Source: an uncultured Spirochaetaceae bacterium
GTDB taxonomy: Bacteria > Myxococcota_A > UBA9160 > UBA4427
Length of the DNA: 64,000 nt
Reading direction: 5' to 3'
Assembly: GCA_964474355.1 (NCBI GenBank)
Contig: CAYYSY010000172.1
Span: 16,526 to 80,525 of the forward strand
Shown here: one piece after another, positions 10,363 through 50,283 of the stretch
Position numbering within the stretch: the stretch's first letter is position 1
Layout: each line of letters starts with the position of its first letter
Program-made: the position numbers and the translations under genes
Notes under the pieces: generated by a model
The model's input: only the letters and a program-made list of their open reading frames with translations
What the model was told of the DNA's origin: nothing
Database searches by the model: none

Positions 10363-11619
10363 TTGCCGGATCGCGATCCGTCGCAGCGGGTCGTCGTCAC
10401 CGGCCTGGGTTGCGCGTCGCCGCTCGGACTCTCCGTCACCGAGACGTGGGACGCCGCGATCGCTGGCCGCTCTGGCGCCGCCACGATCCAGGCCTTCGAC
10501 CCCGAAGGCTATGCCTCCACCATCGCCGCCGAGGTGAAGGGCGACCTCGATCTCGGGGACGTCGAGCCGAAGGAGGCCCGGCGCATGGACCGGGTCGTCA
10601 AGCTCGCGTTGCACGCGACCCGCGAGGCGTTGATCGACTCGAAGCTCGAAGTGAGCGACGCCAATCGCGACCGGGTCGGCGTCGCCGTCGGCTCGGGCAT
10701 CGGCGGCCTCGAGACGCTCACCTCCAATCAGAACACGTTGATGGAGAAGGGCCCGCGCCGCGTCTCGCCGTTCACCATTCCGATGTCCATCGCGAACATG
10801 CCGAGTGGCCTGATCTCGCTCACGCACGGCCTGCGTGGACCCAACCTCTGCCACGTGAGCGCGTGCGCGACCGGTGCCCACGCGCTGGGCGAGTGCATGC
10901 ACTTGATCGCGCGCGGCCAGGCCGACGTCATGGTCGCCGGCGGCAGCGAAGCGCCGATCCAGCCGCTCGGCGTCGCGGGCTTCGCGGCGATGAAGGCGCT
11001 GACCACGCGCAACGACGAGCCCGAGCGGGCGAGCCGCCCCTTCGATCGCGGCCGCGACGGGTTCCTGATCGGCGAGGGCGCCACCGTCCTCGTGCTCGAG
11101 AGCCTCGCGCATGCCCGGGCGCGCGGGGCGCGCATCCATGCCGAGATCGTGGGATACGCGGCCACCGCCGACGCCCACCACATGGTAGCTCCCGATCCCG
11201 ACGGAGCCGGCGCGGCGCGCTGCATGCAGCTCGCCGTGGAGAGCGCCGGGCTCCCGCTCGAGTCCATCGACCACGTGAACGCGCACGCGACCAGCACGCC
11301 GGCGGGCGACCCCACCGAGGTGAAGGCGCTGCGGACCGTGTTCGGCGACCACGCCGACCGCATCGCCGTGTCTGCAACGAAGTCGATGACGGGCCATCTG
11401 CTGGGCGCCGCGGGCGCGCTCGAGGCGCTCTTCTGCATCAAGGCGCTCGAGACGGGGGTACTTCCGCCGACGATCAACCTCGAGGACGTCGACGACGGCT
11501 GCGCCCTCGACCACGTCGCGAACGTGGCGCGGACGCAGTCGATCGCCGTCGCGCTCTCCAACTCGTTCGGCTTCGGCGGCACCAACGCCGCGCTCGTCAT
11601 CACCCGGCCCGATCTCTGA
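10363..11619 (+). CDS. fabF: 3-oxoacyl-ACP synthase II
   Basis: RVVVTGLG..., active-site ACATG, and the HATSTPAGD / NSFGFGGTNA motifs. Proposed TTG start is 5 nt after the acpP stop, so the start is uncertain. Confidence 0.9.
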   Translation: MPDRDPSQRVVVTGLGCASPLGLSVTETWDAAIAGRSGAATIQAFDPEGYASTIAAEVKGDLDLGDVEPKEARRMDRVVKLALHATREALIDSKLEVSDANRDRVGVAVGSGIGGLETLTSNQNTLMEKGPRRVSPFTIPMSIANMPSGLISLTHGLRGPNLCHVSACATGAHALGECMHLIARGQADVMVAGGSEAPIQPLGVAGFAAMKALTTRNDEPERASRPFDRGRDGFLIGEGATVLVLESLAHARARGARIHAEIVGYAATADAHHMVAPDPDGAGAARCMQLAVESAGLPLESIDHVNAHATSTPAGDPTEVKALRTVFGDHADRIAVSATKSMTGHLLGAAGALEALFCIKALETGVLPPTINLEDVDDGCALDHVANVARTQSIAVALSNSFGFGGTNAALVITRPDL

Positions 11620-11752
11620 GCCCGGGCGCGCTGATGGTCACCCGGCCCGATCTCTGAGCCCGGGCCCCCCGATCTTCACTCGGCCCGATCTCCGAGCCCG
11701 GGCCCCCCGATCTTCACCCGGTCCGATCTCCGAGCCCGGGCGCGCTGGGCGC
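11601..11752. repeat. 4 x 38-bp tandem repeat starting inside the last fabF codons
   Basis: Units 11601-11638, 11639-11676, 11677-11714 and 11715-11752 (cacccggcccgatctcTGAgcccgggc...). Units 1-2 keep TGA; units 3-4 have CGA instead. Confidence 0.9.
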
Positions 11753-13219: not shown

Positions 13220-13720
13220 TTGCGCTGTCCGTACTGCGGCGACGACGGGAACCGGGTGATCGACAGCCGGGTGGCGAAGGGGCTGTCGGAGATCCGTCGC
13301 CGGCGCGAGTGCGAGGAGTGCGGGCGACGCTTCACGACACGCGAGCGTGTCGAAGAGACCCTCCCGAAGGTGATCAAGCGCGACGAGCGTCGCGAGGAGT
13401 ACGACCGCGCGAAGCTCGTCCACGGGCTCGAGAATGCGTGCGTCAAGCGACCGGTCTCGGCCGACGCCATCGAGCGACTCGTCGAGCGCGTCGAGCGGCG
13501 TCTGCAGGAGAGCGGCGCTGCCGAGGTGTCGACCCAGGAGATCGGGGAGCGGCTGCTCGAGGGGCTCGTCGCGATCGACACCGTCGCCGCGGTGCGTTTC
13601 GCGTCCGTGTTCCGGAACTTCGAGAGCACCGAGGACTACGCTGCGTTCTTCGAGCGCCTCGGCGACTCGGAGGGCCCGCGCCCGCCGCTGAGGGTGGCGG
13701 GTGACGAGGGCGGCGGGTGA
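13220..13720 (+). CDS. nrdR: transcriptional repressor NrdR
   Basis: (M)RCPYCGDDGNRVIDSR...RRRECEECGRRFTTRERVE zinc ribbon plus ATP-cone. TTG start. Confidence 0.95.
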   Translation: MRCPYCGDDGNRVIDSRVAKGLSEIRRRRECEECGRRFTTRERVEETLPKVIKRDERREEYDRAKLVHGLENACVKRPVSADAIERLVERVERRLQESGAAEVSTQEIGERLLEGLVAIDTVAAVRFASVFRNFESTEDYAAFFERLGDSEGPRPPLRVAGDEGGG

Positions 13721-13830
13721 GCGCTGCTCGCGACCGCGCCAAGCAAGGACAGCGGGTGAGCGCTGCTCGTAACCGCGCCAAGCGAGGACAGCGGGTGAGC
13801 GCGCGAAACGGGGACAGCGTGTGAGCGACG
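13713..13830. repeat. tandem copies of the nrdR-stop / ribD-start junction (2 x 39 bp plus 2 partial)
   Basis: gcggGTGAgcgctgctcg..ccgcgccaagc.aggaca at 13713-13751 and 13752-13790; truncated copy at 13791-13816. The final copy gcgtGTGAgcgac carries the ribD GTG (13821). Confidence 0.9.
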
Positions 13831-14981
13831 CGGCGCGACTGGAGGCGATGATGCGGCTCGCGCTGGCGAGCGGTCGTCGCGGCCTCGGCATCACCCATCC
13901 CAACCCGAGCGTCGGCGCCGTGGTCTTCCGCGGTGATCGCGTGCTCGGCCGCGGTCATACGCGCCCGCCCGGTGGCCCCCATGCCGAGGTCGTAGCCCTG
14001 CGCGCGGCCACCCGCCGTCACGGCGCCGCGGCCGTACGGGGTGCCTCGATGGCGGTGACCCTCGAGCCCTGCTGCTTCACCGGCCGGACACCGCCTTGCA
14101 CCGAAGCGATCCTCGATGCTGGCATCGCCCGGGTGGCGGTGGGGATGCGCGACCCGCATCCGCGTGTGAAGGGCCGCGGGAGCCAGCGCCTCGAAGCGGC
14201 GGGGGTGCGTGTGGTGCGCGACGTCCTCGAGGCCGAGTGCCGCGAGCTGCACCGCGGCTTCTCTTCGCTGTGCGAGCGTGGGCGCCCCTTCGTGACGCTG
14301 AAGCTCGCGACGAGCCTCGACGGTCGCATCGCCACGGCCAGCGGCGAGTCGCGCTGGATCACGGGCGCCGAGGCGCGTCGTTTCGTCCACCGGCTGCGCG
14401 CGCGCGTCGATGCTGTGATGGTCGGCTCGGGGACCGCGCTCGCCGACGACCCCGATCTCACGGCCCGTCACGGCGATCGCGTCCTGCGCCGGCCGGATCG
14501 GGTGCTGGTCGACTCGCGGCTCCGCGTGCCCGCGAGCGCGCGCCTTCACATGGGCCACGCCGGCGCGCGGACCCTGGTGCTGGCCTCTGCGCGAGCGCGC
14601 GGTCGCAAGGCGATCGAGGCATCGGGCTCCGAGCTCGTCGAGGTGCCCGGCCGGACCGGCGCACTCGATCTCGAGCGCGGGCTCGAGCTGCTGGGAGAGG
14701 CCGGTCTCACGACCGTGCTGGTCGAGGGCGGGGGCGGCCTCGCGGCCGCGTTGCTGCGGGCGGGGCTCGTCGACGAGCTGCACTGGATCATCGCGCCGAA
14801 GCTCCTGGGCGGCGACGCCGCGCCGGCGCTCGGTCCCCTCGAGCTCGCGAAGCTCTCCGATGCGCCCGAGCTCGAGGTGCTTCGGACAAGGCGCCTCGGA
14901 CGTGATACACACGTGCACGCGCGGCCAGTTGCAGTCGCAGTCGAGCGTGCCCGACGCCGGCCTTCGCGAGGCTCCCAGTGA
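13821..14981 (+). CDS. ribD: bifunctional riboflavin deaminase/reductase
   Basis: HAEVVAL and TLEPCCFTGRTPPC (CMP/dCMP deaminase zinc site), plus a C-terminal RibD reductase domain. GTG start. Confidence 0.9.
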   Translation: MSDAARLEAMMRLALASGRRGLGITHPNPSVGAVVFRGDRVLGRGHTRPPGGPHAEVVALRAATRRHGAAAVRGASMAVTLEPCCFTGRTPPCTEAILDAGIARVAVGMRDPHPRVKGRGSQRLEAAGVRVVRDVLEAECRELHRGFSSLCERGRPFVTLKLATSLDGRIATASGESRWITGAEARRFVHRLRARVDAVMVGSGTALADDPDLTARHGDRVLRRPDRVLVDSRLRVPASARLHMGHAGARTLVLASARARGRKAIEASGSELVEVPGRTGALDLERGLELLGEAGLTTVLVEGGGGLAAALLRAGLVDELHWIIAPKLLGGDAAPALGPLELAKLSDAPELEVLRTRRLGRDTHVHARPVAVAVERARRRPSRGSQ

Positions 14982-19186: not shown

Positions 19187-19362
19187 CGCCCGGCCTCGAT
19201 CCGAGGGGGCGCGCCCACATCGGGCAACACCTGATAGACGCCTCCAGAGACCCGCGAAACACCCGCGGGCGGCCGACCGAAGTGCCCCGGTTACCTCAAG
19301 AAAGACCGATCCGGGCCGATACGACAGAGGGTCCAGTACGCCAACCCGCCGGGGAGAGGGCC

Positions 19363-19749
19363 GTGCAGCGCATCCTGATCGTCGAAGATTCAGCGACCAT
19401 GCGGTCGTTGCTGGTGTCTTGCCTCGAAGAGCTAGGCGAGCCGGTGAAGATCACCGAAGCCTCGAGTGGATTCGAAGCGCTTCGCTATCTGCCGCGCGAC
19501 GAGTTCGACCTCGTGGTGACCGACATCAACATGCCGGACATCAACGGTCTCGAGCTCGTGTCGTTCGTCAAGAACAACGAGAAGTACCAGGGTATTCCGC
19601 TGGTGATCGTTTCGACCGAGGGGTCGGACCGCGATCGGGACAAGGGCCTCGAGCTCGGTGCCGACGCGTATCTGGTCAAGCCCTTCGAGCCCGAGCTCCT
19701 GCGACAGACCGTGCGTGATCTGCTCGCCGGCTCGCGCGACGCGGGGTAG
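19363..19749 (+). CDS. cheY: CheY-like single-domain response regulator
   Basis: ILIVEDSATMR...DLVVTDINMPDING...GADAYLVKPF. GTG at 19363 with a GGGGAGAGGG RBS. An in-frame GTG at 19282 is also possible. Confidence 0.9.
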   Translation: MQRILIVEDSATMRSLLVSCLEELGEPVKITEASSGFEALRYLPRDEFDLVVTDINMPDINGLELVSFVKNNEKYQGIPLVIVSTEGSDRDRDKGLELGADAYLVKPFEPELLRQTVRDLLAGSRDAG

Positions 19750-19753
19750 AACC

Positions 19754-21961
19754 GTGGCCGCGCGCAAGTCGAGGGCGAAGCCGGCCAAGGCGGTCGCCAA
19801 GAAGGCGGGGCGCGCCAAGGCGTCGGCCCGCAAGCGCACGTCGTCCGCCGGTCCGGGTGGCGACGGCAAGGCGTATCGCGAGTTCGTCTCCGAAGCAGAG
19901 GAGATCCTCGAGCGCATGCGCGAGGACCTCGCCGATCTCTACGATCAGCGCGACTCGCGAGACGAGGTCGAGCCCGATCTCGTGAACCGTATCTTCCGCA
20001 GCGCCCACTCGCTGAAGGGGCTCGCGGGCATGTTCGGGCTCGACGGCATCGGCGAGATCGCGCATCACCTCGAAGACATCCTCGATGGGCTCCGCCTCGG
20101 ACGCATTCACACCGACGCTCCGGCCATCGATCTGCTGGACGAGGCCACGGCGCTCATCGCGGTCCTGATGGGGCAGCTCGAGGGTCCGAGCTCGGGAGAG
20201 ACCCCGGAGAGCCTCGAAGCAGTGGCGGCGCTCGTCGCTCGGATCGATGGCGCGGTCGAAGAGGAGCCCGAGGGCGACGACGAGCTCGCGGGTCTCGATC
20301 TCGACCCCTCGCTGCTGCGTGCCCTCACCGAGTACGAGGAGCACCGGCTGCGCGAGAACGTGCGGCGCGGCCGGCACGTCTCGCTCGTCGGCGCGACCTT
20401 CGAGATCATCGCGTTCGAGGAGGGCCTCTCCGAGCTCTCCGCAGCGGTGCGCGAGGTCGGCGAGGTGGTGTCGACCCTGCCCTCGCCGGGCGACGCGCCC
20501 GAGAGCCAGATCCGGTTCTCGCTGCTGGTCGCCACGGACGTCAGCGCCGACCAGCTCGCCGAACGACTCGACATCTCGGATGCGAGCGTGCGCGCGGTGA
20601 AGCAGGGCGACGCGCCCGAGCCCGAAGCCGAGCCTCCGGTTGCGGCTGAGAGCGAGCCGGCCCCGGCCGAGGCCGCGCCCGCTGCGAGTGCGCCGGACGC
20701 CGCGCCCGCGCCGCCCAGCGCGGCGATCGAGGGCGATCGCGAGAATGCCGAGATCGAGTCGCTGCGTTCGATCAGCGACACGGTCCGCGTCGACATCCGC
20801 AAGCTCGACGAGCTGATGAATCTCGTCGGCGAGCTGATCGTGCAGCGCAACGCCATCGCCAACGTGGCGGGCAACCTCATGGCCGACCCGGCCACGATGC
20901 GCACCGGCGCCGAGCTCGCCAAGACCAACAAGCTGCTCGACCGCAAGCTGAAGGAGCTGCAGGCCGGCGTGCTCGACGTGCGCATGGTGCCGCTGCGGCA
21001 GATCTTCGAGAAGCTGTCGCGGGTCGTGCGCCGGCTCCGCCGCGATCACGAGAAGAATGTGACGCTCAATTTCAAGGGCGCCGACACCGAGCTCGACAAG
21101 CTGATCGTCGAGCAGCTCGTCGATCCGCTGATGCACGTGGTGCGCAATGCCTTCGACCACGCCGTCGAGTCGGCCGACGAGCGGCTCGCTACCGGCAAGC
21201 AGTCCGAGTGCGAGATCTTGATCCAGGCCTTCCAGCGTGGGAATCACGTGGTGATCGAGGTGGTCGACGACGGCCGCGGCATCGATCCCGAGCGGGTGCG
21301 CGCGAAGGCTGAAGAGCGCGGGCTCGTGGCGGCCGATCAGGTGCTCACCGCGAAGGAGACGCTCGACCTCGTCTTCGCACCGGGCCTCTCGACGCGTGAA
21401 GAGGTGAGCGAGCTCTCCGGACGCGGCGTCGGCATGGACGTCGTCCGCCAGAACCTCGCCGACCTCGGCGGCATGGTGGAGCTCGAATCGACGTTCGGTG
21501 TGGGCACGACGGTCACGATGACGCTGCCGATCACCCTGGCGATCATCCAGGCGTTGATCGTGGGGGTCGGCGAGGAGCGCTTCGCGATTCCGCTCAACAG
21601 CGTGCTCGAGACGCTGCTCGTCGAGGAGTCGGAGATCCAGGCGAGCGAGGGCCGCCGCATGCTGAACCTGCGCGGTGACGCGCTGCAGCTGCGACCCCTG
21701 GCCGACGAGTTCGAGCTGTTCAGCATTCGCGACGACGGCAAGCAATACGTCGTCGTGCTCGGCATGGGCGATCAACGCCTCGGCCTGGTCGTGGACCAGC
21801 TCCACGGCCAGCAGGACACGGTCATCAAGCCGATCAAGGGCCCGATCCGCAACATCCCGGGCATCGCCGGCGCCACCGAGCTGGGTGATCAGAGCGCGAT
21901 CCTCGTTCTCGACGTGTCGCATCTCGTCAACGAGGCGGCGAGACGGAGGGAGGTCGCGTGA
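19754..21961 (+). CDS. cheA: chemotaxis histidine kinase CheA (HPt-dimerization-HATPase-CheW-like; no P2 or receiver domain seen)
   Basis: HPt motif FRSAHSLKGLAGMFG. H-box-less dimerization region. N/G1/G2 boxes (NAFDHAVE, DDGRGID, GRGVGMDVV). C-terminal CheW-like domain. GTG start 5 nt after the cheY stop. Confidence 0.95.
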   Translation: MAARKSRAKPAKAVAKKAGRAKASARKRTSSAGPGGDGKAYREFVSEAEEILERMREDLADLYDQRDSRDEVEPDLVNRIFRSAHSLKGLAGMFGLDGIGEIAHHLEDILDGLRLGRIHTDAPAIDLLDEATALIAVLMGQLEGPSSGETPESLEAVAALVARIDGAVEEEPEGDDELAGLDLDPSLLRALTEYEEHRLRENVRRGRHVSLVGATFEIIAFEEGLSELSAAVREVGEVVSTLPSPGDAPESQIRFSLLVATDVSADQLAERLDISDASVRAVKQGDAPEPEAEPPVAAESEPAPAEAAPAASAPDAAPAPPSAAIEGDRENAEIESLRSISDTVRVDIRKLDELMNLVGELIVQRNAIANVAGNLMADPATMRTGAELAKTNKLLDRKLKELQAGVLDVRMVPLRQIFEKLSRVVRRLRRDHEKNVTLNFKGADTELDKLIVEQLVDPLMHVVRNAFDHAVESADERLATGKQSECEILIQAFQRGNHVVIEVVDDGRGIDPERVRAKAEERGLVAADQVLTAKETLDLVFAPGLSTREEVSELSGRGVGMDVVRQNLADLGGMVELESTFGVGTTVTMTLPITLAIIQALIVGVGEERFAIPLNSVLETLLVEESEIQASEGRRMLNLRGDALQLRPLADEFELFSIRDDGKQYVVVLGMGDQRLGLVVDQLHGQQDTVIKPIKGPIRNIPGIAGATELGDQSAILVLDVSHLVNEAARRREVA

Positions 21962-22470
21962 GCGAGTCGACTGACGTCGGAGGTGATTGGGAGGATCTCG
22001 CCCGGACCGCCTCGGTGAGGCACGGCGGAGAGGACGACGGCGGGGCGTTGATGCTGCGCGAGCTGCTCTCGTTCGAGCTCGCCGGGTCGCCTTACGCGAT
22101 TCCGGTGGAACGCGTCCGCGAGATCGTGCGGGTGCGCGAGCTGACGCACGTGCCGCGCGTGCCCGATTGGGTGCGTGGCATCGTCACCCTGCGCGGTGAG
22201 GTGGTGCAGGTGATCGACCTGCGGATGCGACTCGGTCTTCGCGCCGACGATACGAACCGGCGCAGTCGGATCATCGTGCTCCATGGCGACGACGATCGCG
22301 TCACCGGCGTGCTCGTGGACTCGGTGCGCGAGGTGCTGCGCGTCGAGGAAGAATCGTTTTCACCGTCGATGGACTCGGAGTTGGGCGCCGTCGCGGAGCT
22401 CTGTCTCCGCGACGAGGAGTTCGTCTCGGTCATCGACGTCGACAGGGTATTGGACCTCCGTGCCGACTGA
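21958..22470 (+). CDS. cheW: CheW coupling protein 1
   Basis: LLSFELAGSPYAIPVERVREIV...VRGIVTLRGEVVQVIDLR. GTGA overlap with cheA. Confidence 0.9.
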   Translation: MSESTDVGGDWEDLARTASVRHGGEDDGGALMLRELLSFELAGSPYAIPVERVREIVRVRELTHVPRVPDWVRGIVTLRGEVVQVIDLRMRLGLRADDTNRRSRIIVLHGDDDRVTGVLVDSVREVLRVEEESFSPSMDSELGAVAELCLRDEEFVSVIDVDRVLDLRAD

Positions 22471-22581
22471 TTCGGATACGGGGATGGCAACACTCCGCGT
22501 CGACTGACGCGGACACGGGGATGGCAACACTCCGCGTCGACTGACGCGGACACGGGGATGAAGCGAGTTCGTGCAGACTGA
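22464..22581. repeat. 3 x 37-bp tandem repeat of the cheW1-stop / cheW2-start junction
   Basis: Units 22464-22500, 22501-22537 and 22538-22574, followed by the start of a fourth (gacTGA, to 22581). Each unit has the form cgacTGA..ggacacggggATG...... Confidence 0.9.
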
Positions 22582-23068
22582 AGCCGCACAGACCTTCGTG
22601 GGCGAGAACCAGGTCAATCTCGCCTGCTTCGAGACGGAAGGGCGCCTCTATGCCCTCGACGTGTCGCAGGTGCGCGAGATCGTCCGCTCCCAGGCGGTCA
22701 CGCCGCTCCCGATGGCACCCTCGCTGATCGAGGGCGTCGTCGACCTGCGCGGCGCGGTGATCCCGGTGCTCGATCTCGCGCGCGTGCTCGGCGGCACGCC
22801 GCCCGAGGAGACGGCGCAGTCGCGGATCGTGGTACTCGACTGTGACGGCCTCGTGCTCGGTCTCTTCGTCGCTTCGGCGACGGACGTGCTCTCGGTCGAT
22901 GCATCCCGTCTCGAGGACGTCCCGGAGCTCGCCAGCCAGGCCGGGTATGACGCCGTCCGTCACGTCGTGCGCCGCCCCGGCGCAGCCCCAGTCATGGTCC
23001 TTTCGCTCGAGCACATTCTCGAGAACGTCTACAAGTCGGCGATCGCAGGCCCCGAGGAATCGCGATGA
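22571..23068 (+). CDS. cheW: CheW coupling protein 2
   Basis: LACFETEGRLYALDVSQVREIV...IEGVVDLRGAVIPVLDL. The GTG start lies inside the third repeat unit. Confidence 0.85.
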   Translation: MQTEAAQTFVGENQVNLACFETEGRLYALDVSQVREIVRSQAVTPLPMAPSLIEGVVDLRGAVIPVLDLARVLGGTPPEETAQSRIVVLDCDGLVLGLFVASATDVLSVDASRLEDVPELASQAGYDAVRHVVRRPGAAPVMVLSLEHILENVYKSAIAGPEESR

Positions 23069-25644
23069 ACCCCGAATCCCTACCGACGTCCACCGAGCTT
23101 CGCGGGAAGCTGAGACGCGTAGATCAGATGGTGGCGCTGCCTGCGCTCGTGCTCATCTGGACGTATGTCGCTTCGGCCGTGGACTTCCGGCCCGGCGAGC
23201 TCGTCCCGATGTTCGTGACTCTGGGCATCTACGCCGCCGGCACCGTGTTGATGATGGAGTGGCTGCGCGGTCGCCAGTTCGTGGCGCTGGGTCGGGTCCT
23301 CGATGCGCGTGACGAAGCGCCGCTCACACACGACGAGCTCGCCGCCGGCTTCGCCACGGCCGTCTCGCTGCCTGCTACGGCCGCGAAGACCGTCGCGCTC
23401 GTGTGGCTCGCGCCGGGGATCGTGGTGCCCCTGGTGCTGGCTGCGATCGGGCACACCTCGTGGATCGGGTTCGAGCGCTGGAGCGTGCTGCTGGTCGCCG
23501 TGGTCTGCGGTGCGATGGTCTCCGTCGGCTTCCTCTTCTTCCTCGCCAAGAGTGCCCTCGAGCCGGTGCGCGAGGCGGTCGGCCTGCGAATCGAGGACAG
23601 CGACGAGCGCGAGCGCGCCGTGAAGCCGCTTCCGATGGCGACGAAGGTGCAGTTCGTCGTGCTCGGCGCCGTGCTGACGACCCTGTTGCTGACGGTCTCG
23701 CTCGCCTGGTCCCGTTCGACCGTGGCGGTCGATGCCCAGGCGATGGAGTGGCAGCAGCGCGTGCTCTCGGCGCTCGCGACGAAGATGCGCTCGGCCACGT
23801 TCAGCGAGGCGCGGCTCGACGTGCTGCCTCTCGATGCGATCCTGCCCCACGACGTCGATCTGGTCGTCCTCGACCAGGGCGACGATGCCAGCGCCGTCAG
23901 GCTCGGCAGAGACCGCGAGCCCGCCGATCTCCGCTCCGTGTCGGATGCGCCGGAGCAGGTGGGCCAATCGTCCGCGCTCGTCACCGGTTATGTCACCAGC
24001 TGGAAGCGTCTGCCCGACGGACGCGTCCTCGTGGCGGCGATCGACCGCGCTGATCTCCAGCTCGGCTTCGGGGCCTTCGGCTCGGTGCTCGGCCTGCTCA
24101 CGCTGCTGACGAGCGGCGTCGCCGTCGCGCTCGCGTGGCTGCTCTCGCGGGACATCCGCCGGGCGGCGGAGGTGCTGCAGGCGGAGGCCGACCGGCTCGC
24201 GTCCGGCGACCTGCGCCGGGGTCGGGTCTGGGAGGCGGAGGACGAGATGGGCGGCCTCGGCCGCGCCTTCGAGCGCATGGGCGCGTCGCTCCGCAAGACC
24301 GTGGGCGGCGTGGCGCATACCGCCGACCGCGTCGAGGCTGCGGTGGCCGACATCTCCGCCGTGTCGCGCAGCGTCGCGGTCGCGAGCGCCGATCAGGTGC
24401 GTCGCATCCAGCAGGCCAGCGATCTCATGCTCGAGATCAACCAGCAGGTGCGCGGCGTCTCCGACAGCGCCCAGGCGCTGAACCTCTCCGTCGAGGAGTC
24501 GAGCAGCTCGATCCTCGAGCTCGGCGCCGCGGGCGACGAGCTGAACGACACCGCCACCGTGCTCTCGGGCAAGGTCGACGAGGTGTCGGGATCGATCGAG
24601 CAGATGGTCCGCAGCGTGAAGGAGGTCGGCTCGACCAGCGAGCAGCTCTCCGACGCGGCGGCCGAGACGTCCTCGAGCATGGAGGAGATGGCGAGCTCGA
24701 TGCGCGCAGTGGACACCACCGCCGAGGCGACCGCCAGCCTCTCGAACGACGTGGTGTCGCTCGCCGAGCGCGGCCAGCAGCGCGTCAGCCAGACGATGAG
24801 CGGCATGGAGGCGATTCGCGACGCGACGGACGCGGCCGAGAAGGTGATTCGCGGCCTGGGCGCCCGGACCAACGAGATCGGTGGCATCCTCGATGTGATC
24901 GACGACGTCGCCGACGAGACGAATCTGCTCGCGCTGAACGCCGCCATCATCTCGGCACAGGCCGGTGAGCACGGCCGCGCCTTCTCGGTGGTGGCCGACG
25001 AGATCAAGGAGCTCGCCGACCGGGTCCTCGCGTCGACCAAGGAGATCGGCTCGCTGATCCGCAATGTGCAGGAGGAGAGCGAGGCCGCGGTCGGAGCGAT
25101 CGAGGCCGGCAGCCAGAGCGTGGCCGGTGGCGTCGAGCTCTCGGCCGAGGCGGGCAGCTCCCTCGAAGAGATCACGCGTGCGTCTCGCGAGAGCGGCACG
25201 CGCATCGGAGAGATCGTCTCGGCCGTGCGCGAGCAGACGAAGGCCACGGGTCACGTGGTCTCGCTCATGGAGGCGGTGCGCGAGGGCGTCGACCACATCT
25301 CTCTCGCGCGCACAGAGCAGGACGGCGCCAACGAGGTCGTCTATCGCTCGTCGGTCACGATGCAGGAGGTCGCCCAGCAGGTGCGGCGCACCACCGAGGA
25401 GCAGTCGCGCGGCTTCGGCCGGATCCGCGAGAGCATCGAGGGGGTGCGCGAGGCGGTCGAGCAGATCAACGGGTCGCTGCGCGACCAGTCGAGCGCGTGT
25501 GCCCAGGTGGCCGAGTTCCTCGAGCAGGTGGCCGACGGCACCCGCTCGAACGAGGATGCCGCCCAGCGCATGGGTGACTCGATGCGCGTCATGATGGAGC
25601 AGGCGGAGGCGCTCCGTGCGGACCTCGAGGAGTTCCGCCTCTAG
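23065..25644 (+). CDS. mcp: methyl-accepting chemotaxis protein with multi-pass N-terminal membrane domain and HAMP
   Basis: About 6 hydrophobic helices, then HAMP (...LASGDLRRG...), then the highly conserved hairpin ETNLLALNAAIISAQAGEHGRAFSVVADEIKELA. ATGA overlap with cheW2. Confidence 0.95.
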   Translation: MNPESLPTSTELRGKLRRVDQMVALPALVLIWTYVASAVDFRPGELVPMFVTLGIYAAGTVLMMEWLRGRQFVALGRVLDARDEAPLTHDELAAGFATAVSLPATAAKTVALVWLAPGIVVPLVLAAIGHTSWIGFERWSVLLVAVVCGAMVSVGFLFFLAKSALEPVREAVGLRIEDSDERERAVKPLPMATKVQFVVLGAVLTTLLLTVSLAWSRSTVAVDAQAMEWQQRVLSALATKMRSATFSEARLDVLPLDAILPHDVDLVVLDQGDDASAVRLGRDREPADLRSVSDAPEQVGQSSALVTGYVTSWKRLPDGRVLVAAIDRADLQLGFGAFGSVLGLLTLLTSGVAVALAWLLSRDIRRAAEVLQAEADRLASGDLRRGRVWEAEDEMGGLGRAFERMGASLRKTVGGVAHTADRVEAAVADISAVSRSVAVASADQVRRIQQASDLMLEINQQVRGVSDSAQALNLSVEESSSSILELGAAGDELNDTATVLSGKVDEVSGSIEQMVRSVKEVGSTSEQLSDAAAETSSSMEEMASSMRAVDTTAEATASLSNDVVSLAERGQQRVSQTMSGMEAIRDATDAAEKVIRGLGARTNEIGGILDVIDDVADETNLLALNAAIISAQAGEHGRAFSVVADEIKELADRVLASTKEIGSLIRNVQEESEAAVGAIEAGSQSVAGGVELSAEAGSSLEEITRASRESGTRIGEIVSAVREQTKATGHVVSLMEAVREGVDHISLARTEQDGANEVVYRSSVTMQEVAQQVRRTTEEQSRGFGRIRESIEGVREAVEQINGSLRDQSSACAQVAEFLEQVADGTRSNEDAAQRMGDSMRVMMEQAEALRADLEEFRL

Positions 25645-42369: not shown

Positions 42370-43165
42370 AGCGACGGCCTCGAGCGATGTGACGCCCTCG
42401 AGCGGGACGACCGCCTCGAGCGGGATGGGAGCCTCGAGCGGGACGAGAACCGAGAACGAGGCGCCGGCGAAGCCCGTCATCGAGCTCGAGGGGCTGTGCA
42501 AGCACTTCGAGACCGGCGAGAGCCGGATCGAGGTGCTGAATGGCGTCGATCTCGAGCTGTATCGCGGCGACCGCGTCGCCATCGTCGGTCAGTCGGGCGT
42601 CGGCAAGTCGACTCTTCTCCACATCCTCGGCACCCTCGATCATCCAACCTCGGGCTCGGTGCGCTTTGGCGGCGAGGACGTGTTCGATCGCACCTCCGAG
42701 TCGCTGGCCGAGCTCCGTAACCGCTACCTCGGCTTCGTCTTCCAGTTCCACCATCTGCTGCCCGAGTTCAGCGCCGTCGAGAACGTGATGATGCCCGGGC
42801 TCATCCGGGGGCAGGCGCGTGACGAGATGCGCCCGGTGGCGGCGCACATGCTCGAGGAGGTCGGGCTCTCGCATCGACTCGAGCATCCGGTGGGCAAGCT
42901 GTCGGGGGGCGAGCGGCAGCGTGTGGCCGTCGCGCGCGCACTGGTGCTCGAGCCGCCGGTCGTGCTGGCGGACGAGCCGACGGGCAACCTCGATCCCGCG
43001 ACCGGCGACCACGTGGCCGAGCTGCTCTTCGACATGAACCAGCGCCGCGGCACGACCCTGGTCGTGGTGACCCACAGCGCGCGCATGGCCGAGCGCCTCG
43101 GACGCACGCTCGTGCTGCGGGATGGCCGGCTCGAAGAAGGTGTGGAGGACGCGGCGCTCGTGTGA
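42362..43165 (+). CDS. lolD: lipoprotein-releasing ABC transporter ATP-binding protein
   Basis: [38 protein letters not shown]. The N-terminus contains Ser-rich hexapeptide repeats. An internal ATG at 42425 is an alternative start. Confidence 0.9.
42377..42448. repeat. 4 x 18-bp in-frame tandem repeat at the lolD 5' end
   Basis: gcctcgagcgatgtgacg / ccctcgagcgggacgacc / gcctcgagcgggatggga / gcctcgagcgggacgaga. It starts 8 nt after the lolE stop. Confidence 0.9.
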
Positions 43166-48370: not shown

Positions 48371-49222
48371 GTGCTGGGGCTGATCGCGGGCGAGGGGGCC
48401 TTTCCGATCGAGATCGCGCGCGCCGTGCGCGCCGCCGGTCAGCCCGTGCACGCGGTGGCCTTCGCCGAGCTCACCGACCCGAGCCTCGAGGGCCAGGTGT
48501 CCTCCATCGACTGGCTGCCGCTCGGCGCCGTCCGGCCGCTGCTCGACTCGCTGCACGGTGCCGGTGCCCACGACGTCGTGCTCGCCGGCAAGGTGGCCAA
48601 GACGCATCTCCATCGACCGGGCGTCCCCGTCGCCCCCGACCGCGAGGCGCTCGCGCTCTTCGCGAGCCTCGACGATCGCGCCGACGGCCGGCTGCTCTCG
48701 GCCCTGGCCGATCTGCTCGAGGCCGAGGGCTTCGAGCTGAAGCCCCAGGCCGAGTGGGTGCCCGACTGGATCGCCCGGCCCGGGGTGCTCGGCGAGACCC
48801 GACCGACCGAGCGGCAGCGCCTCGACATCGCGCTGGGCGCACCGATCGCTCGCAGCATCGCCGATCTCGACGTCGGCCAGTGCGTCGCCGTCGAGGCGGG
48901 CACGGTGCTCGCCGTCGAAGCGATCGACGGCACCGATGCGACGATCGAGCGTGCCGGCCGACTCGGCGCAGGGGAGGGCGTGCTCGTCAAGCTCGCTCGC
49001 CCGGTGCAGGATCCGCGCTTCGACCTGCCGGCGGTCGGCCCGCGCACCCTCGACGCGATGGCGAAGGCCGGTCTGCGCGCGCTGGCGATCGAGGCAGGAC
49101 GCACCCTCGTGATCGGGGGGCACGATCTCGCGCGTCACGCCGACGCGCTGGGCATCGCCGTGGTCGGCATCGACCCGCGCGACGCGGCCGGCATGGGCGT
49201 GGACATGGGGATCGCTTCGTGA
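48371..49222 (+). CDS. lpxI: UDP-2,3-diacylglucosamine pyrophosphatase LpxI (DUF1009)
   Basis: (V)LGLIAGEGAFPIEIARAVRAAG...LAGKV...DVGQCVAVEAGTVLAVEAIDGTDATIERAG. GTG start with a GGGGGGAGAA RBS. An in-frame ATG at 48200 is possible but lies inside the duplicated lpxA tail. Confidence 0.8.
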   Translation: MLGLIAGEGAFPIEIARAVRAAGQPVHAVAFAELTDPSLEGQVSSIDWLPLGAVRPLLDSLHGAGAHDVVLAGKVAKTHLHRPGVPVAPDREALALFASLDDRADGRLLSALADLLEAEGFELKPQAEWVPDWIARPGVLGETRPTERQRLDIALGAPIARSIADLDVGQCVAVEAGTVLAVEAIDGTDATIERAGRLGAGEGVLVKLARPVQDPRFDLPAVGPRTLDAMAKAGLRALAIEAGRTLVIGGHDLARHADALGIAVVGIDPRDAAGMGVDMGIAS

Positions 49223-49260: not shown

Positions 49261-49336
49261 ATGGGCGAGGGCCGTGCCGACGTGAAGGACCGTATTCATG
49301 GCGGCGAGGGCCGGGCCGTCGTGAAGGACCGCATTC
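49261..49336. repeat. two copies (37 and 39 bp) of the oxidoreductase start region
   Basis: atgggcgagggccgtgccgacGTGAaggaccgtattc / atggcggcgagggccgggccgtcGTGAaggaccgcattc, 34 of 37 identical. Both GTGs are in frame, 39 nt apart. Confidence 0.9.
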
Positions 49337-50283
49337 GTGTCGGCGTGATCGGCGTGGGCTACATGGGCCGGCTGCATGCCGAGAAGCTCGCCGCGCTCGC
49401 GCTCGACGACGAGGGGCTCGAGTTCGTCGGCGTCGCGGACGTCCGCCCCGAGCGCGCGCGCGGTGTCGCGAACCGGCTCGAGACGTCGGCGTGGCCCGAC
49501 CATCGCCCGGTGTTCGAGCAGGCGGACGCGGTCGTGGTGGCCGTGCCGACGGTCAGCCACTTCGACATCGTGCGCGACGCGCTCCATGCCGGCGTCGACG
49601 TGCTGGTCGAGAAGCCCATCGCCGCGACCCTCGACGAGGCAGAGCAGCTGCTCGCGCTCGCGCGTGCCGGCGAGCGCATCCTGCAGGTCGGCCATCTCGA
49701 GTGGTTCAACGGCGCAATGAGCGTGATCCGCGAGCACATCCGCGCGCCGCGCTTCATCGAGGTGCACCGGCTCGGGCCCTTTCCCGATCGGGCGACCGAC
49801 ATCGACGTGGTGCGCGACGTCATGATCCACGACCTCGACATCCTGCAGCAGACCCTCGGCGAGGCGCCGGCCGAGATCGACGCAGTGGGCGTGCCGATCC
49901 TCTCGCCCGAGGTCGACATCGCGAACGCGCGGCTGCGCTTCCCCGGCGGCTGCGTCGCGAACCTGACCGCGTCGCGTGTCACGAGCACGCCGACGCGCAA
50001 GATCCGCTTCTTCCAGCCCGATGCCTACTTCTCGGTCGACTTCCTCGAGCAGGCGGCGGTCGCGATCCGTCGTGAGCCGGGCGAGGCCGGGGCCCCGGGC
50101 GCGATGAAGCTCGAGAAGCTCGACGTCGATCGGGGCGATGCGCTCGTCGCGCAGCTGCGGGACTTCATCGGCGCCGTGCGCACCCGTCAGCGCCCGGAGG
50201 TCGACGGAGTCGATGGCCTCGATGCACTGCGCACGGCGGGGCGCGTGATCGAGGCGATGGGGCCCGTGGGCGTGCTCGACTGA
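49321..50283 (+). CDS. Gfo/Idh/MocA-family NAD(P)-dependent oxidoreductase
   Basis: (V)KDRIRVGVIGVGYMGRLHAEK Rossmann N-terminus, later EKPIA. Alternative in-frame starts at GTG 49282 and ATG 49261 lie in the duplicated copy. Confidence 0.8.
   Translation: MKDRIRVGVIGVGYMGRLHAEKLAALALDDEGLEFVGVADVRPERARGVANRLETSAWPDHRPVFEQADAVVVAVPTVSHFDIVRDALHAGVDVLVEKPIAATLDEAEQLLALARAGERILQVGHLEWFNGAMSVIREHIRAPRFIEVHRLGPFPDRATDIDVVRDVMIHDLDILQQTLGEAPAEIDAVGVPILSPEVDIANARLRFPGGCVANLTASRVTSTPTRKIRFFQPDAYFSVDFLEQAAVAIRREPGEAGAPGAMKLEKLDVDRGDALVAQLRDFIGAVRTRQRPEVDGVDGLDALRTAGRVIEAMGPVGVLD

What the first reader, a model, noticed from the sequence alone, without database searches (positions are those of the whole stretch)
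22456..22581. cheW1/cheW2 junction triplicated, giving three 7-codon mini-ORFs
The cheW1 end ctccGTGccgacTGA (22456-22470) matches 12 of 15 nt of gttcGTGcagacTGA (22567-22581), which contains the cheW2 start GTG (22571). This implies an ancestral 11-nt gene overlap.

Between the two copies, 37-bp units each carry acGGGGATG plus 7 codons plus TGA:
- ATG 22484-22507: MATLRVD*
- ATG 22521-22544: MATLRVD*
- ATG 22558-22581: MKRVRAD*

Each mini-ORF ends like CheW1 (..LRAD*). The last one overlaps the cheW2 start, so translation of cheW2 could depend on termination and reinitiation through these mini-ORFs.
Basis: seen in the sequence. Interest (0 to 1): 0.6.

Follow-up and report, generated by a model that had tools for sequence, protein, structure and literature searches.

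The report
Tandemly duplicated cheW1/cheW2 gene junction
A 37-base piece spanning the point where two chemotaxis genes used to overlap has been copied three extra times, which pushed the genes 100 bases apart and left a chain of tiny leftover reading frames; relatives show how overlapping genes were separated and rejoined here, but whether the leftovers still pass ribosomes on is untested.

Summary
Window 22456-22581 holds four head-to-tail copies of the junction motif ctccGYGYMGACTGA at 37-nt spacing, and three 7-codon ATG...TGA mini-ORFs. The last one stops on the cheW2 start. Four independent assemblies carry the identical array.

Ten related loci have no spacer, and cheW1 ends inside cheW2 as GTGCAGACTGA, an 11-nt overlap. 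Other relatives carry spacers of 24, 62, 66 and 95 nt made of degraded copies of the cheW1 tail.

The gene tree implies at least two independent duplications and one collapse back to the overlap. The array is therefore an in-situ junction duplication that separated two overlapping genes. It is not a mobile element.

The mini-ORFs are relics of the last eight cheW1 codons. They have no usable Shine-Dalgarno sequence. Only the window's lineage and its sister keep them; the other lineages lost the relic stop, and two of them gained a well-placed ribosome-binding site.

A termination-reinitiation relay is geometrically possible, with 13-nt gaps, but published distance data suggest it would be leaky. 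Hairpins with compensatory changes are the better-conserved feature.

Similar 38-39-nt duplications sit on other gene boundaries in this window.

The parts
19658..21961 (+). cheA (Hpt, dimerisation, HATPase and CheW-like domains). The start codon is uncertain. Its stop TGA 21959-61 overlaps the cheW1 GTG as GTGA.
   Evidence: ORF list, Pfam, sequence
21958..22470 (+). cheW1, 170 aa, ending ...VLDLRAD*. It has a strong Shine-Dalgarno sequence, GGAGGGAGG, upstream.
   Evidence: Pfam CheW E 1e-33; anti-SD duplex -13.2 kcal/mol
22456..22581 (+). Tandem array: U1 22456-22492 (begins with the last 15 nt of cheW1), U2 22493-22529, U3 22530-22566, partial U4 22567-22581 (holds the cheW2 start). U2 and U3 are identical over their first 31 nt.
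   Evidence: TRF, the repeat finder, sequence
22471..22570 (+). 100-nt non-coding spacer created by the duplications. It shows no codon-phase GC signal (0.62/0.64/0.64), while both flanks show a strong one.
22456..22483 (+). Hairpin 1, an 11-pair stem with one bulge. The cheW1 stop TGA lies in its loop, and its 3' arm ends on the GGGG just before ATG 22484. Energy -15.3 kcal/mol.
   Evidence: p 0.03-0.06 against shuffled downstream sequence
22484..22507 (+). Mini-ORF 1, MATLRVD*. It is a relic copy of the last cheW1 codons (VLDLRAD*) and starts 13 nt after the cheW1 stop.
22494..22513 (+). Hairpin 2, a perfect 8-bp stem tccgcgtc/gacgcgga with loop gact. Energy -14.6 kcal/mol. It contains the mini-ORF 1 stop.
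   Evidence: (I1)
22521..22544 (+). Mini-ORF 2, MATLRVD*, identical to mini-ORF 1. It starts 13 nt after the previous stop.
22531..22550 (+). Hairpin 3, identical to hairpin 2. Its 3' arm can alternatively pair with gttcgtg, which contains the cheW2 start (-12.4 kcal/mol).
22558..22581 (+). Mini-ORF 3, MKRVRAD*. Its TGA (22579-81) is the relic cheW1 stop and overlaps the cheW2 GTG.
22571..22581 (+). GTGCAGACTGA, the ancestral 11-nt overlap motif. It now serves only as the start of cheW2.
   Evidence: Identical motif forms the real cheW1/cheW2 overlap in L035, L013, L033, L036, L032 and L014
22571..23068 (+). cheW2, 165 aa. The start is supported by relatives of the same length, by ATG at the same position in L027 and L022, and by mostly synonymous changes in codons 2-10. 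Its stop overlaps the mcp ATG as ATGA.
23065..25644 (+). Methyl-accepting chemotaxis protein gene (HAMP and MCPsignal domains), coupled to cheW2 by a 4-nt overlap.

Best explanation
The array is an in-situ tandem duplication of the cheW1/cheW2 junction.

Shown:
- The ancestor had cheW1 ending inside cheW2 (GTGCAGACTGA, an 11-nt overlap).
- A segment of about 35-38 nt holding the last roughly 11 cheW1 codons and the embedded cheW2 start was duplicated head to tail. The most likely cause is replication slippage.
- The first copy kept the cheW1 stop and the last copy kept the cheW2 start, so the two genes were separated.
- The array then expanded, decayed and, in one lineage, collapsed back to the overlap.
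- In this genome two of the units were re-amplified recently.
- The three mini-ORFs are relics of the cheW1 tail. The Val codon became ATG, and the relic stops are the old cheW1 TGA.

Inferred:
- The spacer replaces tight overlap coupling with a weaker, structured link.
- Hairpins at or after each stop limit free ribosome entry.
- cheW2 is translated by a minority of ribosomes handed on stepwise through the mini-ORFs, by weak de novo initiation at the GTG, or by both.
- The expected result is less CheW2 and MCP per CheW1, with looser coupling.
- Unit number would set how much.
For: Origin:
- Ten relatives have the overlap, and others have spacers of 24, 62, 66, 66 and 95 nt.
- The spacers align with one another and with the cheW1 tail. 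Examples: L029 ATGGCGAATCTCAGTGCAGACTGA against cheW1 GTGCTCGAACTCCGTGCCGACTGA; L034 and L011 share CCGCGTC...ACGCG with the window's units.
- The unit is absent elsewhere in the window.

Release of constraint after separation:
- The cheW1 Ala codon is GCA in the six closest overlapping relatives, where it is fixed by the cheW2 CAG codon. It is GCC or GCG in all seven spacer-bearing sequences.
- The Arg codon, fixed as cGT by the GTG, becomes cgc, aga, agg or cgg.
- The relic TGA is lost (ACC GAG) in L003, L011 and L034.

History:
- The clade {window, L029, L035, L034, L011, L003} has bootstrap 100.
- L030/L031 (24-nt spacer) fall in the sister clade among overlapping members.
- L035 (overlap) is nested. 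Four derived sites are shared with window+L029 and three with L029. None place L035 outside.

Function:
- The mini-ORF ATGs have only GGGG abutting the ATG, a spacing of 0. The cheW2 GTG has no well-spaced Shine-Dalgarno sequence, whereas cheW1 has a strong one.
- Stop-to-ATG gaps are 13 nt. Published reinitiation falls 40-80% at +14 nt and is about zero at +38 nt (PMC10666635).
- Spacer junctions fold better than shuffles (z -2.65 in the window, -3.6 in L003). Overlap junctions fold worse or equal (z 0 to +2.2).
- The internal hairpin keeps 80% pairing, with three pairs changed on both sides (6 of 500 shuffles reach this).
- A hairpin encloses the cheW1 stop in 5 of 6 spacer lineages.
Against: - The functional part rests on no expression data. 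The organism is known only from metagenomes.
- The tree uses about 1 kb and NJ. The (L029, L035) and (window, L029, L035) nodes have only 73% bootstrap.
- Hairpin statistics are individually weak (p 0.03-0.16, and one lineage fails). The lineages are not independent, and G+C-rich palindromic repeats fold easily.
- Predicted structures are degenerate, because arms of different units can pair with each other.
- Distance rules for reinitiation come from E. coli and Haloferax, not from Myxococcota.
- No copy-number variation was seen among the four near-identical assemblies.
Confidence: 0.7

Rival explanations
1. Selected mini-ORF relay. Ribosomes finishing cheW1 reinitiate at ATG 22484, then 22521, then 22558. 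The last termination, on top of GTG 22571, delivers them to cheW2. The chain is maintained by selection, and cheW2 expression depends on it.
For: - Every relic TGA has an in-frame ATG 21 nt upstream, and the gaps are a uniform 13 nt.
- The last stop/start geometry equals the ancestral overlap.
- The cheW2 GTG lacks a well-spaced Shine-Dalgarno sequence.
- Sister lineage L029 also links cheW1 to cheW2 by two 7-codon ORFs. In one of them a 4-nt deletion is matched by a new ATG 4 nt upstream (ATGAATGGCGATGCTCCACGCTGA).
- The lineages that lost the relic TGA have Shine-Dalgarno-like sequences instead: L011 GGGAG at +4 and L030 GGAG at +7.
- Short ORFs that deliver ribosomes to a coupled gene are a recognised mechanism (PMC12548453).
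Against: - ATG...TGA units are what a recent duplication of the cheW1 tail gives without any selection. U2 and U3 are identical copies, so there are only two independent observations here.
- The chain is absent in four of six spacer-bearing sequences.
- Three steps at 20-60% each would pass only about 1-20% of ribosomes (inference from PMC10666635).
- There is no usable Shine-Dalgarno sequence.
- Hairpins overlap each mini-ORF.
Confidence: 0.25
2. The hairpins are the functional part. They are stable stem-loops at and after the stops. They would act as translational insulators, like ribosome termination structures, and/or as 3'-exonuclease barriers. Either way they would uncouple cheW2-mcp expression from cheA-cheW1. 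On this reading the mini-ORFs are irrelevant.
For: - A hairpin of -14 to -22 kcal/mol is present in every spacer lineage. It is made partly from different sequence and shows compensatory changes: T-A to C-G and G-C to A-T between the window and L029.
- The cheW1 stop sits in a hairpin loop in 5 of 6 lineages, including the independently arisen L030/L031 spacer.
- Overlap junctions are less structured than shuffles, and spacer junctions are more structured. This matches the published pattern: structure is depleted at distances under 25 nt and enriched at 25 nt or more (PMC7518266).
Against: - Only five to six related sequences are available, and the individual tests are weak.
- Quasi-palindromes can be perfected by template-switch mutation without selection (established knowledge).
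- The registers differ between lineages.
- L034 lacks the local hairpin.
- There is no U-tract and no terminator-like site.
- No RNA data exist.
Confidence: 0.3
3. Neutral junk. The array is a selectively neutral slippage product with no effect on expression, and cheW2 initiates independently at its GTG.
For: - Similar 38-39-nt duplications lie on other gene boundaries in the same 64 kb. This argues for a general mutational tendency.
- The array decays quickly in sister lineages and can be lost (L035).
Against: - Inserting 100 structured nucleotides into an 11-nt overlap is expected to change coupling (PMC10666635; PMC7518266).
- Every other junction in the operon is a 4-nt overlap.
- Coupling of chemotaxis genes is known to matter in E. 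coli (PMC2716512).
- There are compensatory changes in the stems.
Confidence: 0.25
4. A mobile or dispersed repeat (MIRU-, REP- or MITE-like) inserted between the genes, or an assembly artefact.
For: The array is intercistronic, holds small ORFs and holds palindromes, as MIRU and REP elements do.
Against: - The unit occurs nowhere else in the window.
- Its sequence is a copy of the adjacent cheW1 tail, and each lineage's units resemble its own tail.
- There is no Rfam match.
- Four independent assemblies are identical.
Confidence: 0.03

Closest known systems
MIRU-VNTR loci of mycobacteria (Supply et al. 1997, as described in PMC12548453 and PMC3184786)
   Same: Both are short tandem units in the intercistronic region of an operon. 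Both contain small ORFs in the gene orientation whose ends are coupled to the flanking genes' stop and start codons. Both have G+C-rich internal inverted repeats, and unit number differs between lineages.
   Different: MIRUs are a dispersed, apparently mobile family of about 40-50 loci with 40-100 bp units that insert at start codons. Here the unit is made from the local gene junction itself and is not found elsewhere in the window. Only the last mini-ORF overlaps a flanking codon; the first starts 13 nt after the cheW1 stop.
Translational coupling by termination-reinitiation at short overlaps (PMC6728339, PMC10666635, PMC12548453)
   Same: The ancestral -11 overlap, and the -4 overlaps at cheA/cheW1 and cheW2/mcp, are the classic geometry. 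The last mini-ORF reproduces that geometry on the cheW2 start.
   Different: The real upstream gene now ends 100 nt away. That distance abolishes coupling in tested pairs unless the mini-ORFs act as stepping stones.
Leader-peptide or uORF delivery of ribosomes (for example plasmid R1 tap/repA from my own knowledge; uORF coupling in PMC12548453 and PMC13285730)
   Same: In both, a short non-functional ORF terminates on or next to the start of the real gene.
   Different: Those leader ORFs have their own ribosome-binding site and are single. Here there are three in series without a Shine-Dalgarno sequence, and they are fed, if at all, from an upstream gene.
Ribosome termination structure (Chemla et al. 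2020, PMC7518266)
   Same: Both involve stable structure at or just after a stop codon where the intergenic distance is 25 nt or more, and no such structure at overlapping junctions.
   Different: The published structure is a statistical, sequence-unspecific signal tested in a synthetic E. coli operon. Here the stop lies in the hairpin loop, and function is untested.
Engineered 'decompression' of overlapping genes by duplicating the shared segment (T7 and phiX174 refactoring; from my own knowledge, not checked here)
   Same: The logic is the same. Duplicate the overlap so that each gene keeps its own copy and can change freely.
   Different: Those were designed. This one arose naturally, expanded, decayed and reverted.

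Membership tests
Tandem duplication / VNTR | Head-to-tail copies of one unit | tested here: met
   Period 37, 2.8-3.4 copies, 92% matches
Tandem duplication / VNTR | Unit number varies between related genomes | tested here: met
   0, about 1, about 2 and about 3 units across related lineages. No variation among four near-identical assemblies.
Junction duplication of overlapping genes (proposed here) | Relatives without the array have the two genes overlapping at the repeated motif | tested here: met
   GTGCAGACTGA overlap in 10 loci
Junction duplication of overlapping genes (proposed here) | First copy evolves as the upstream gene only and last copy as the downstream gene only | tested here: met
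   GCA becomes GCC or GCG and cGT becomes other Arg codons in cheW1. ACT GAA becomes ACC GAG in cheW2 of three lineages.
MIRU | Dispersed family with many copies per genome | tested here: not met
   No other copy in 64 kb. The whole genome was not available.
MIRU | Intercistronic position within an operon, same orientation | tested here: met
   Lies between cheW1 and cheW2. The neighbouring junctions are 4-nt overlaps.
MIRU | Internal ORF whose ends overlap both the stop of the upstream gene and the start of the downstream gene | tested here: not met
   The downstream end is met: TGA 22579-81 lies on GTG 22571. The upstream end is not: there is a 13-nt gap, and three separate ORFs, because 37 is not a multiple of 3.
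MIRU | Sequence similarity to MIRU consensus; mycobacterial host | not tested
   Relatives are Myxococcota MAGs. No MIRU sequence was compared.
Termination-reinitiation coupling | Stop and next start overlap or lie within about 10-20 nt | tested here: met
   Spacings are +13, +13, +13 and -11 nt. The range comes from PMC10666635.
Termination-reinitiation coupling | Downstream translation depends on upstream translation | not testable with these tools
   Needs reporter fusions or ribosome profiling
Ribosome termination structure | Structure of -6 kcal/mol or stronger at or just after the stop, more stable than expected, with intergenic distance of 25 nt or more | tested here: inconclusive
   -15.3 kcal/mol around the cheW1 stop, p 0.03-0.06. 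Similar in 5 of 6 lineages, but individually weak. Whole-spacer z is -2.65.
Intrinsic terminator / sigma-70 promoter / known RNA family | Stem plus U-tract; -35/-10 hexamers; Rfam model match | tested here: not met
   0 terminator-like and 0 promoter-like sites in 21900-23100. No Rfam match in the array; the only hit (E 0.47) lies inside cheW2 at 22665-22749.

The most novel reading that the evidence does not exclude
The array is a heritable, copy-number-tunable translational attenuator built from the gene junction itself. Each 37-nt unit is one termination-reinitiation step: a hairpin that blocks free ribosome entry, then an ATG, six codons and a stop. Each step passes on only a fraction of the ribosomes leaving cheW1. 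Gain, loss or complete collapse of units by slippage would then reset the CheW2 and MCP to CheW1 ratio. The same process would act at other operon junctions of this genome, for example the nrdR-ribD bridging ORF.
Probability: 0.15. Interest if true: 0.75.

Novelty: new variant of a known kind. Interest (0 to 1): 0.45.

Why it matters
Work on overlapping bacterial genes explains gain and loss of overlaps by point mutations in start and stop codons. The three overlap-evolution papers I searched do not mention duplication at all.

This locus gives a sequence-level series of states: overlap, then one unit, then two, then three, and back to overlap. It shows a different route. Slippage duplicates the junction, each gene keeps its own copy, and the codons that were locked by the overlap start to drift.

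The route is reversible and has happened at least twice at the same junction.

The locus also offers a natural test bed for how far, and through what, ribosomes can be handed from one gene to the next. The literature on this is contradictory. The operon is a chemotaxis operon, where coupling is known to affect pathway robustness in E. coli.

If the relay or hairpin effects are real, unit number would be a simple evolutionary dial for subunit ratios. If they are not, this is still a tidy, datable example of an ordinary mutational process.

Tried and rejected
- **Dispersed or mobile repeat.** The 37-mer and a 17-mer core were searched in the window with up to 3 mismatches. Only the array matched, plus one chance-level hit at 49198.
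- **Assembly artefact.** Rejected: three other contigs are identical.
- **Strain-level copy-number variation.** None among the four assemblies.
- **Internal promoter or intrinsic terminator.** None found.
- **Known RNA family.** None in the array.
- **Shine-Dalgarno-driven initiation of the mini-ORFs.** The only purine run abuts the ATG.
- **One clear secondary structure and start-codon accessibilities.** Predictions change with the length of context, because unit arms can pair across units. I do not rely on them.
- **A simple trend of closer relative meaning longer spacer.** This broke down: L035, at 90% CheW2 identity, has the overlap. That led to the tree and the collapse inference.
- **An ancestral GTGA overlap for the second array (nrdR-ribD).** The one relative I could fetch (L038, genome OZ252299) has a non-repetitive spacer of about 150 nt instead, so that origin stays open.
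- **An exact-protein look-up of NrdR.** It returned only a 630-nt contig that ends inside the repeat.
- **P0007's contig.** It had no DNA available. Its gene coordinates show a 24-nt gap.
Full report
**1. What is in the sequence.**

The region belongs to a chemotaxis operon. It runs response regulator (19282-19749), cheA (to 21961), cheW1 (21958-22470), cheW2 (22571-23068) and an MCP gene (23065-25644), all confirmed by Pfam. cheA/cheW1 and cheW2/mcp are joined by 4-nt overlaps, GTGA and ATGA. Only cheW1 and cheW2 are 100 nt apart.

Tandem Repeats Finder gives 22456-22560 with period 37, 2.8 copies and 92% matches. The repeat finder gives the same three registers.

Reading, the units are:
- U1 22456-22492, which begins with the last 15 nt of cheW1
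- U2 22493-22529
- U3 22530-22566
- a partial U4 22567-22581, which contains the cheW2 start

The motif ctccGYGYMGACTGA therefore occurs four times. Each ATG lies 13 nt after the preceding stop, and the last TGA overlaps GTG 22571 by 11 nt.

The unit occurs nowhere else in the window. Three independent metagenome contigs are identical through the array.

**2. Relatives show the ancestral state.**

I searched genome and metagenome collections with CheW2 and looked up contigs of its closest homologues. This gave 18 informative junctions.

| Junction state | Loci |
|---|---|
| No spacer, 11-nt overlap ...ctccGTGCAGACTGA (minor variants GTGCGGACTGA, ATGCGAACTGA) | L035, L013, L033, L036, L032, L014, L007, L004, L012, L027 |
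| 8-nt overlap | L022 |
| 24-nt spacer | L030, L031, and by gene coordinates P0007's contig |
| 62-nt spacer | L029 |
| 66-nt spacer | L003, L011 |
| 95-nt spacer | L034 |
| 100-nt spacer | the window |

**3. The spacers are made of copies of the cheW1 tail.**

- In L029 the segment before cheW2 reads ATGGCGAATCTCAGTGCAGACTGA. The same genome's cheW1 ends GTGCTCGAACTCCGTGCCGACTGA.
- In L030/L031 the 24-nt spacer plus the first 11 nt of cheW2 (35 nt) parallels the last 35 nt of cheW1 (gtactggagc against gtacggagc).
- L034 ends ...gcagagctccGTGCAGACC, which resembles its own tail ctcgagctca.
- L011 and L034 share CCGCGTC...ACGCG with the window's units.

The mini-ORFs are therefore the last eight cheW1 codons (V-L-D-L-R-A-D-stop) with the Val codon changed to ATG.

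A possible slippage site is the pair of TGA triplets 38 nt apart in the overlap-state sequence: gTGAtcgac ... cTGAagcc in L035. This is my inference.

**4. Separation released the codons that the overlap had locked.**

- In the six closest overlapping relatives the cheW1 Ala codon is GCA, because its A is the middle base of the cheW2 CAG codon. In all seven spacer-bearing sequences it is GCC or GCG.
- The Arg codon, fixed as cGT by the GTG start, has become cgc, aga, agg or cgg.
- On the cheW2 side, ACT GAA (which holds the relic TGA) has become ACC GAG in L003, L011 and L034.

This is what is expected if the first copy now serves only cheW1 and the last copy only cheW2.

**5. History.**

I built a neighbour-joining tree of 480 nt of cheW1 plus cheW2.
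- The window, L029, L035, L034, L011 and L003 form one clade with bootstrap 100.
- L030/L031 fall in the sister clade together with overlapping members (bootstrap 66).
- L035, which has the overlap, is nested. It pairs with L029 at 73%, and the window joins that pair at 73%.

A site count agrees. Four derived sites are shared by window+L029+L035, three by L029+L035, and none unite the five spacer-bearing members against L035.

The units of the window, L029, L034 and L011 share derived features that the cheW1 tails lack (ATGGC, CCGCGTC). The simplest history is therefore:
- one duplication in the ancestor of this clade
- an independent one in L030/L031
- later expansion to three units in the window and in L034
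- decay beyond recognition as repeats in L003 and L011
- a precise collapse back to the overlap in L035, by deletion between the direct repeats GTGCMGACTGA

In the window, U2 and U3 are identical over 31 nt, so the last amplification is recent.

**6. Do the mini-ORFs work as a relay?**

For:
- The geometry fits.
- The cheW2 GTG has no well-spaced Shine-Dalgarno sequence, while cheW1 has GGAGGGAGG (-13.2 kcal/mol).
- L029 also links cheW1 to cheW2 with two 7-codon ORFs. One is kept open by a replacement ATG after a 4-nt deletion.
- L011 and L030/L031 have no mini-ORF ending on the cheW2 start, and they have GGGAG or GGAG at a proper distance instead.

Against:
- The mini-ORFs are exactly what a young duplication leaves behind.
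- Their only purine run (GGGG) touches the ATG.
- Four of six spacer-bearing sequences lack the chain.
- In native gene pairs a +14-nt gap cost 40-80% of reinitiation and +38 nt abolished it (PMC10666635).

By inference from those figures, three 13-nt steps would pass roughly 1-20% of ribosomes, while a bare 100-nt gap would pass almost none. A leaky relay is therefore possible, but a requirement is not shown.

**7. Hairpins.**

- U2 and U3 each form a perfect 8-bp stem, tccgcgtc-gact-gacgcgga, at -14.6 kcal/mol.
- Four of the five differences between U1 and U2 fall in this stem. They turn two mismatches and a wobble into Watson-Crick pairs.
- Across the window, L029, L034 and L011, 80% of cells pair. 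Three pairs changed on both sides, a count reached by 6 of 500 shuffles. Slid registers give at most 50% pairing.
- In 5 of 6 spacer lineages, including the independent L030/L031 event, the cheW1 stop lies in the loop of a hairpin formed with the sequence just downstream (p about 0.03-0.1 each).
- Spacer junctions fold better than shuffles (z -1.1 to -3.6). Overlap junctions fold no better or worse (z 0 to +2.2).

This matches the reported depletion of structure after stops at closely spaced genes and its enrichment at distances of 25 nt or more, where it inhibited reinitiation in a synthetic operon (PMC7518266).

The evidence is suggestive, not strong. There are few, related sequences. Palindromes can also be perfected by template-switch mutation. 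There is no promoter-like or terminator-like site and no Rfam match in the array.

**8. Not unique in this genome.**

Other 38-39-nt tandem duplications in the window also lie on gene boundaries.
- The nrdR/ribD junction (13713-13832, period 39) also has a 100-nt spacer. A 35-codon ORF there starts at GTG 13717, overlapping the nrdR TGA as GTGA. It ends at TGA 13822-24, overlapping the ribD GTG 13821 as GTGA.
- The 3' end and stop of a gene I read as ketoacyl-synthase-like, from its C-terminal residues only (11600-11741, period 38).
- The start region of a gene I read as a Gfo/Idh/MocA-type oxidoreductase, from its N-terminal residues only (49264-49345, period 39).

This points to a general mutational tendency rather than a cheW-specific device. 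For nrdR/ribD the one relative I could fetch has a non-repetitive spacer of about 150 nt, so its origin is open.

**9. Comparison with known systems.**

The closest analogue is the mycobacterial MIRU-VNTR. These are intercistronic tandem units with small ORFs coupled to the flanking genes (PMC12548453; PMC3184786).

The array works like one in outline, but it fails the membership test. It is not dispersed, it is made from the local junction, and only its downstream end overlaps a flanking codon.

Overlap-evolution papers that I searched attribute loss of overlap to point mutations or gene loss and do not mention duplication. That is absence in a limited library, not proof of novelty.

**10. 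Verdict.**

- Observation: confirmed.
- Evolutionary interpretation: confirmed and extended, with at least two origins, expansion, decay and reversal.
- Functional interpretation: plausible in a weak form and untested.

This is a new variant of a known kind of feature. It has moderate interest as a clean natural example of gene de-overlapping. It would have higher interest only if unit number is shown to tune CheW2 expression.

Noticed in passing
window 13713-13832 (bridging ORF 13717-13824): There is a 39-nt tandem array between nrdR (stop 13718-20) and ribD (GTG 13821), again with a 100-nt spacer. Each unit carries GGGTGAGCG. A 35-codon ORF (VSAARDRAKQGQRVSAARNRAKRGQRVSARNGDSV*) overlaps the nrdR stop as GTGA and the ribD start as GTGA, which is coupling geometry at both ends. 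Relative L038 (OZ252299) has a non-repetitive spacer of about 150 nt instead.
   Followed up: partly
window 11600-11741: There is a 38-nt tandem array of 3.7 copies. It duplicates the last codons (...ITRPDL), the TGA and a gcccgggc palindrome of the gene ending at 11619. I read that gene as ketoacyl-synthase-like from its C-terminal residues only. The later copies have lost the stop (TGA to CGA).
   Followed up: partly
window 49264-49345: There is a 39-nt tandem duplication of 2.1 copies covering the start region (GTGaaggaccgcattc...) of a gene I read as a Gfo/Idh/MocA-type oxidoreductase from its N-terminal residues only. It is in frame, so an upstream GTG would add 13 residues that repeat the N-terminus.
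   Followed up: partly
window 42372-42446: An 18/36-nt repeat encodes a Ser/Gly/Thr-rich stretch (ASSD/ASSG...). It lies at the very N-terminus of an ORF I read as an ABC-type ATPase from its residues only, 10 nt after an ATGA stop/start overlap at 42362-65.
   Followed up: partly
whole window (TRF table): Of the seven tandem repeat rows scoring at least 100 (each a different array), five have periods of 36-39 nt. Four of those include a gene start or stop, and the fifth begins 10 nt after one. Why this length recurs is unexplained.
   Followed up: no
L035 209-219 versus L029 687-774: Two closely related contigs differ by the presence (62 nt) or complete absence of the spacer. The one without it has a perfect GTGCAGACTGA overlap. 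This is apparently a precise deletion between the direct repeats that restored the ancestral arrangement.
   Followed up: yes
L030 883-932 and L031: An independent 35-nt junction duplication gives a 24-nt spacer. The copied Leu-Glu codons (ctGGAGc) have become a GGAG ribosome-binding site 7 nt before the cheW2 GTG. A 6-8-bp hairpin (gcggac-tgag-gtccgc) holds the cheW1 stop in its loop.
   Followed up: yes
L037 (630-nt contig) and P0121: A short-read assembly of the same organism breaks inside the nrdR-ribD array. The identical NrdR protein is on record in NCBI on an 81.8-kb contig, probably the source of this window.
   Followed up: no
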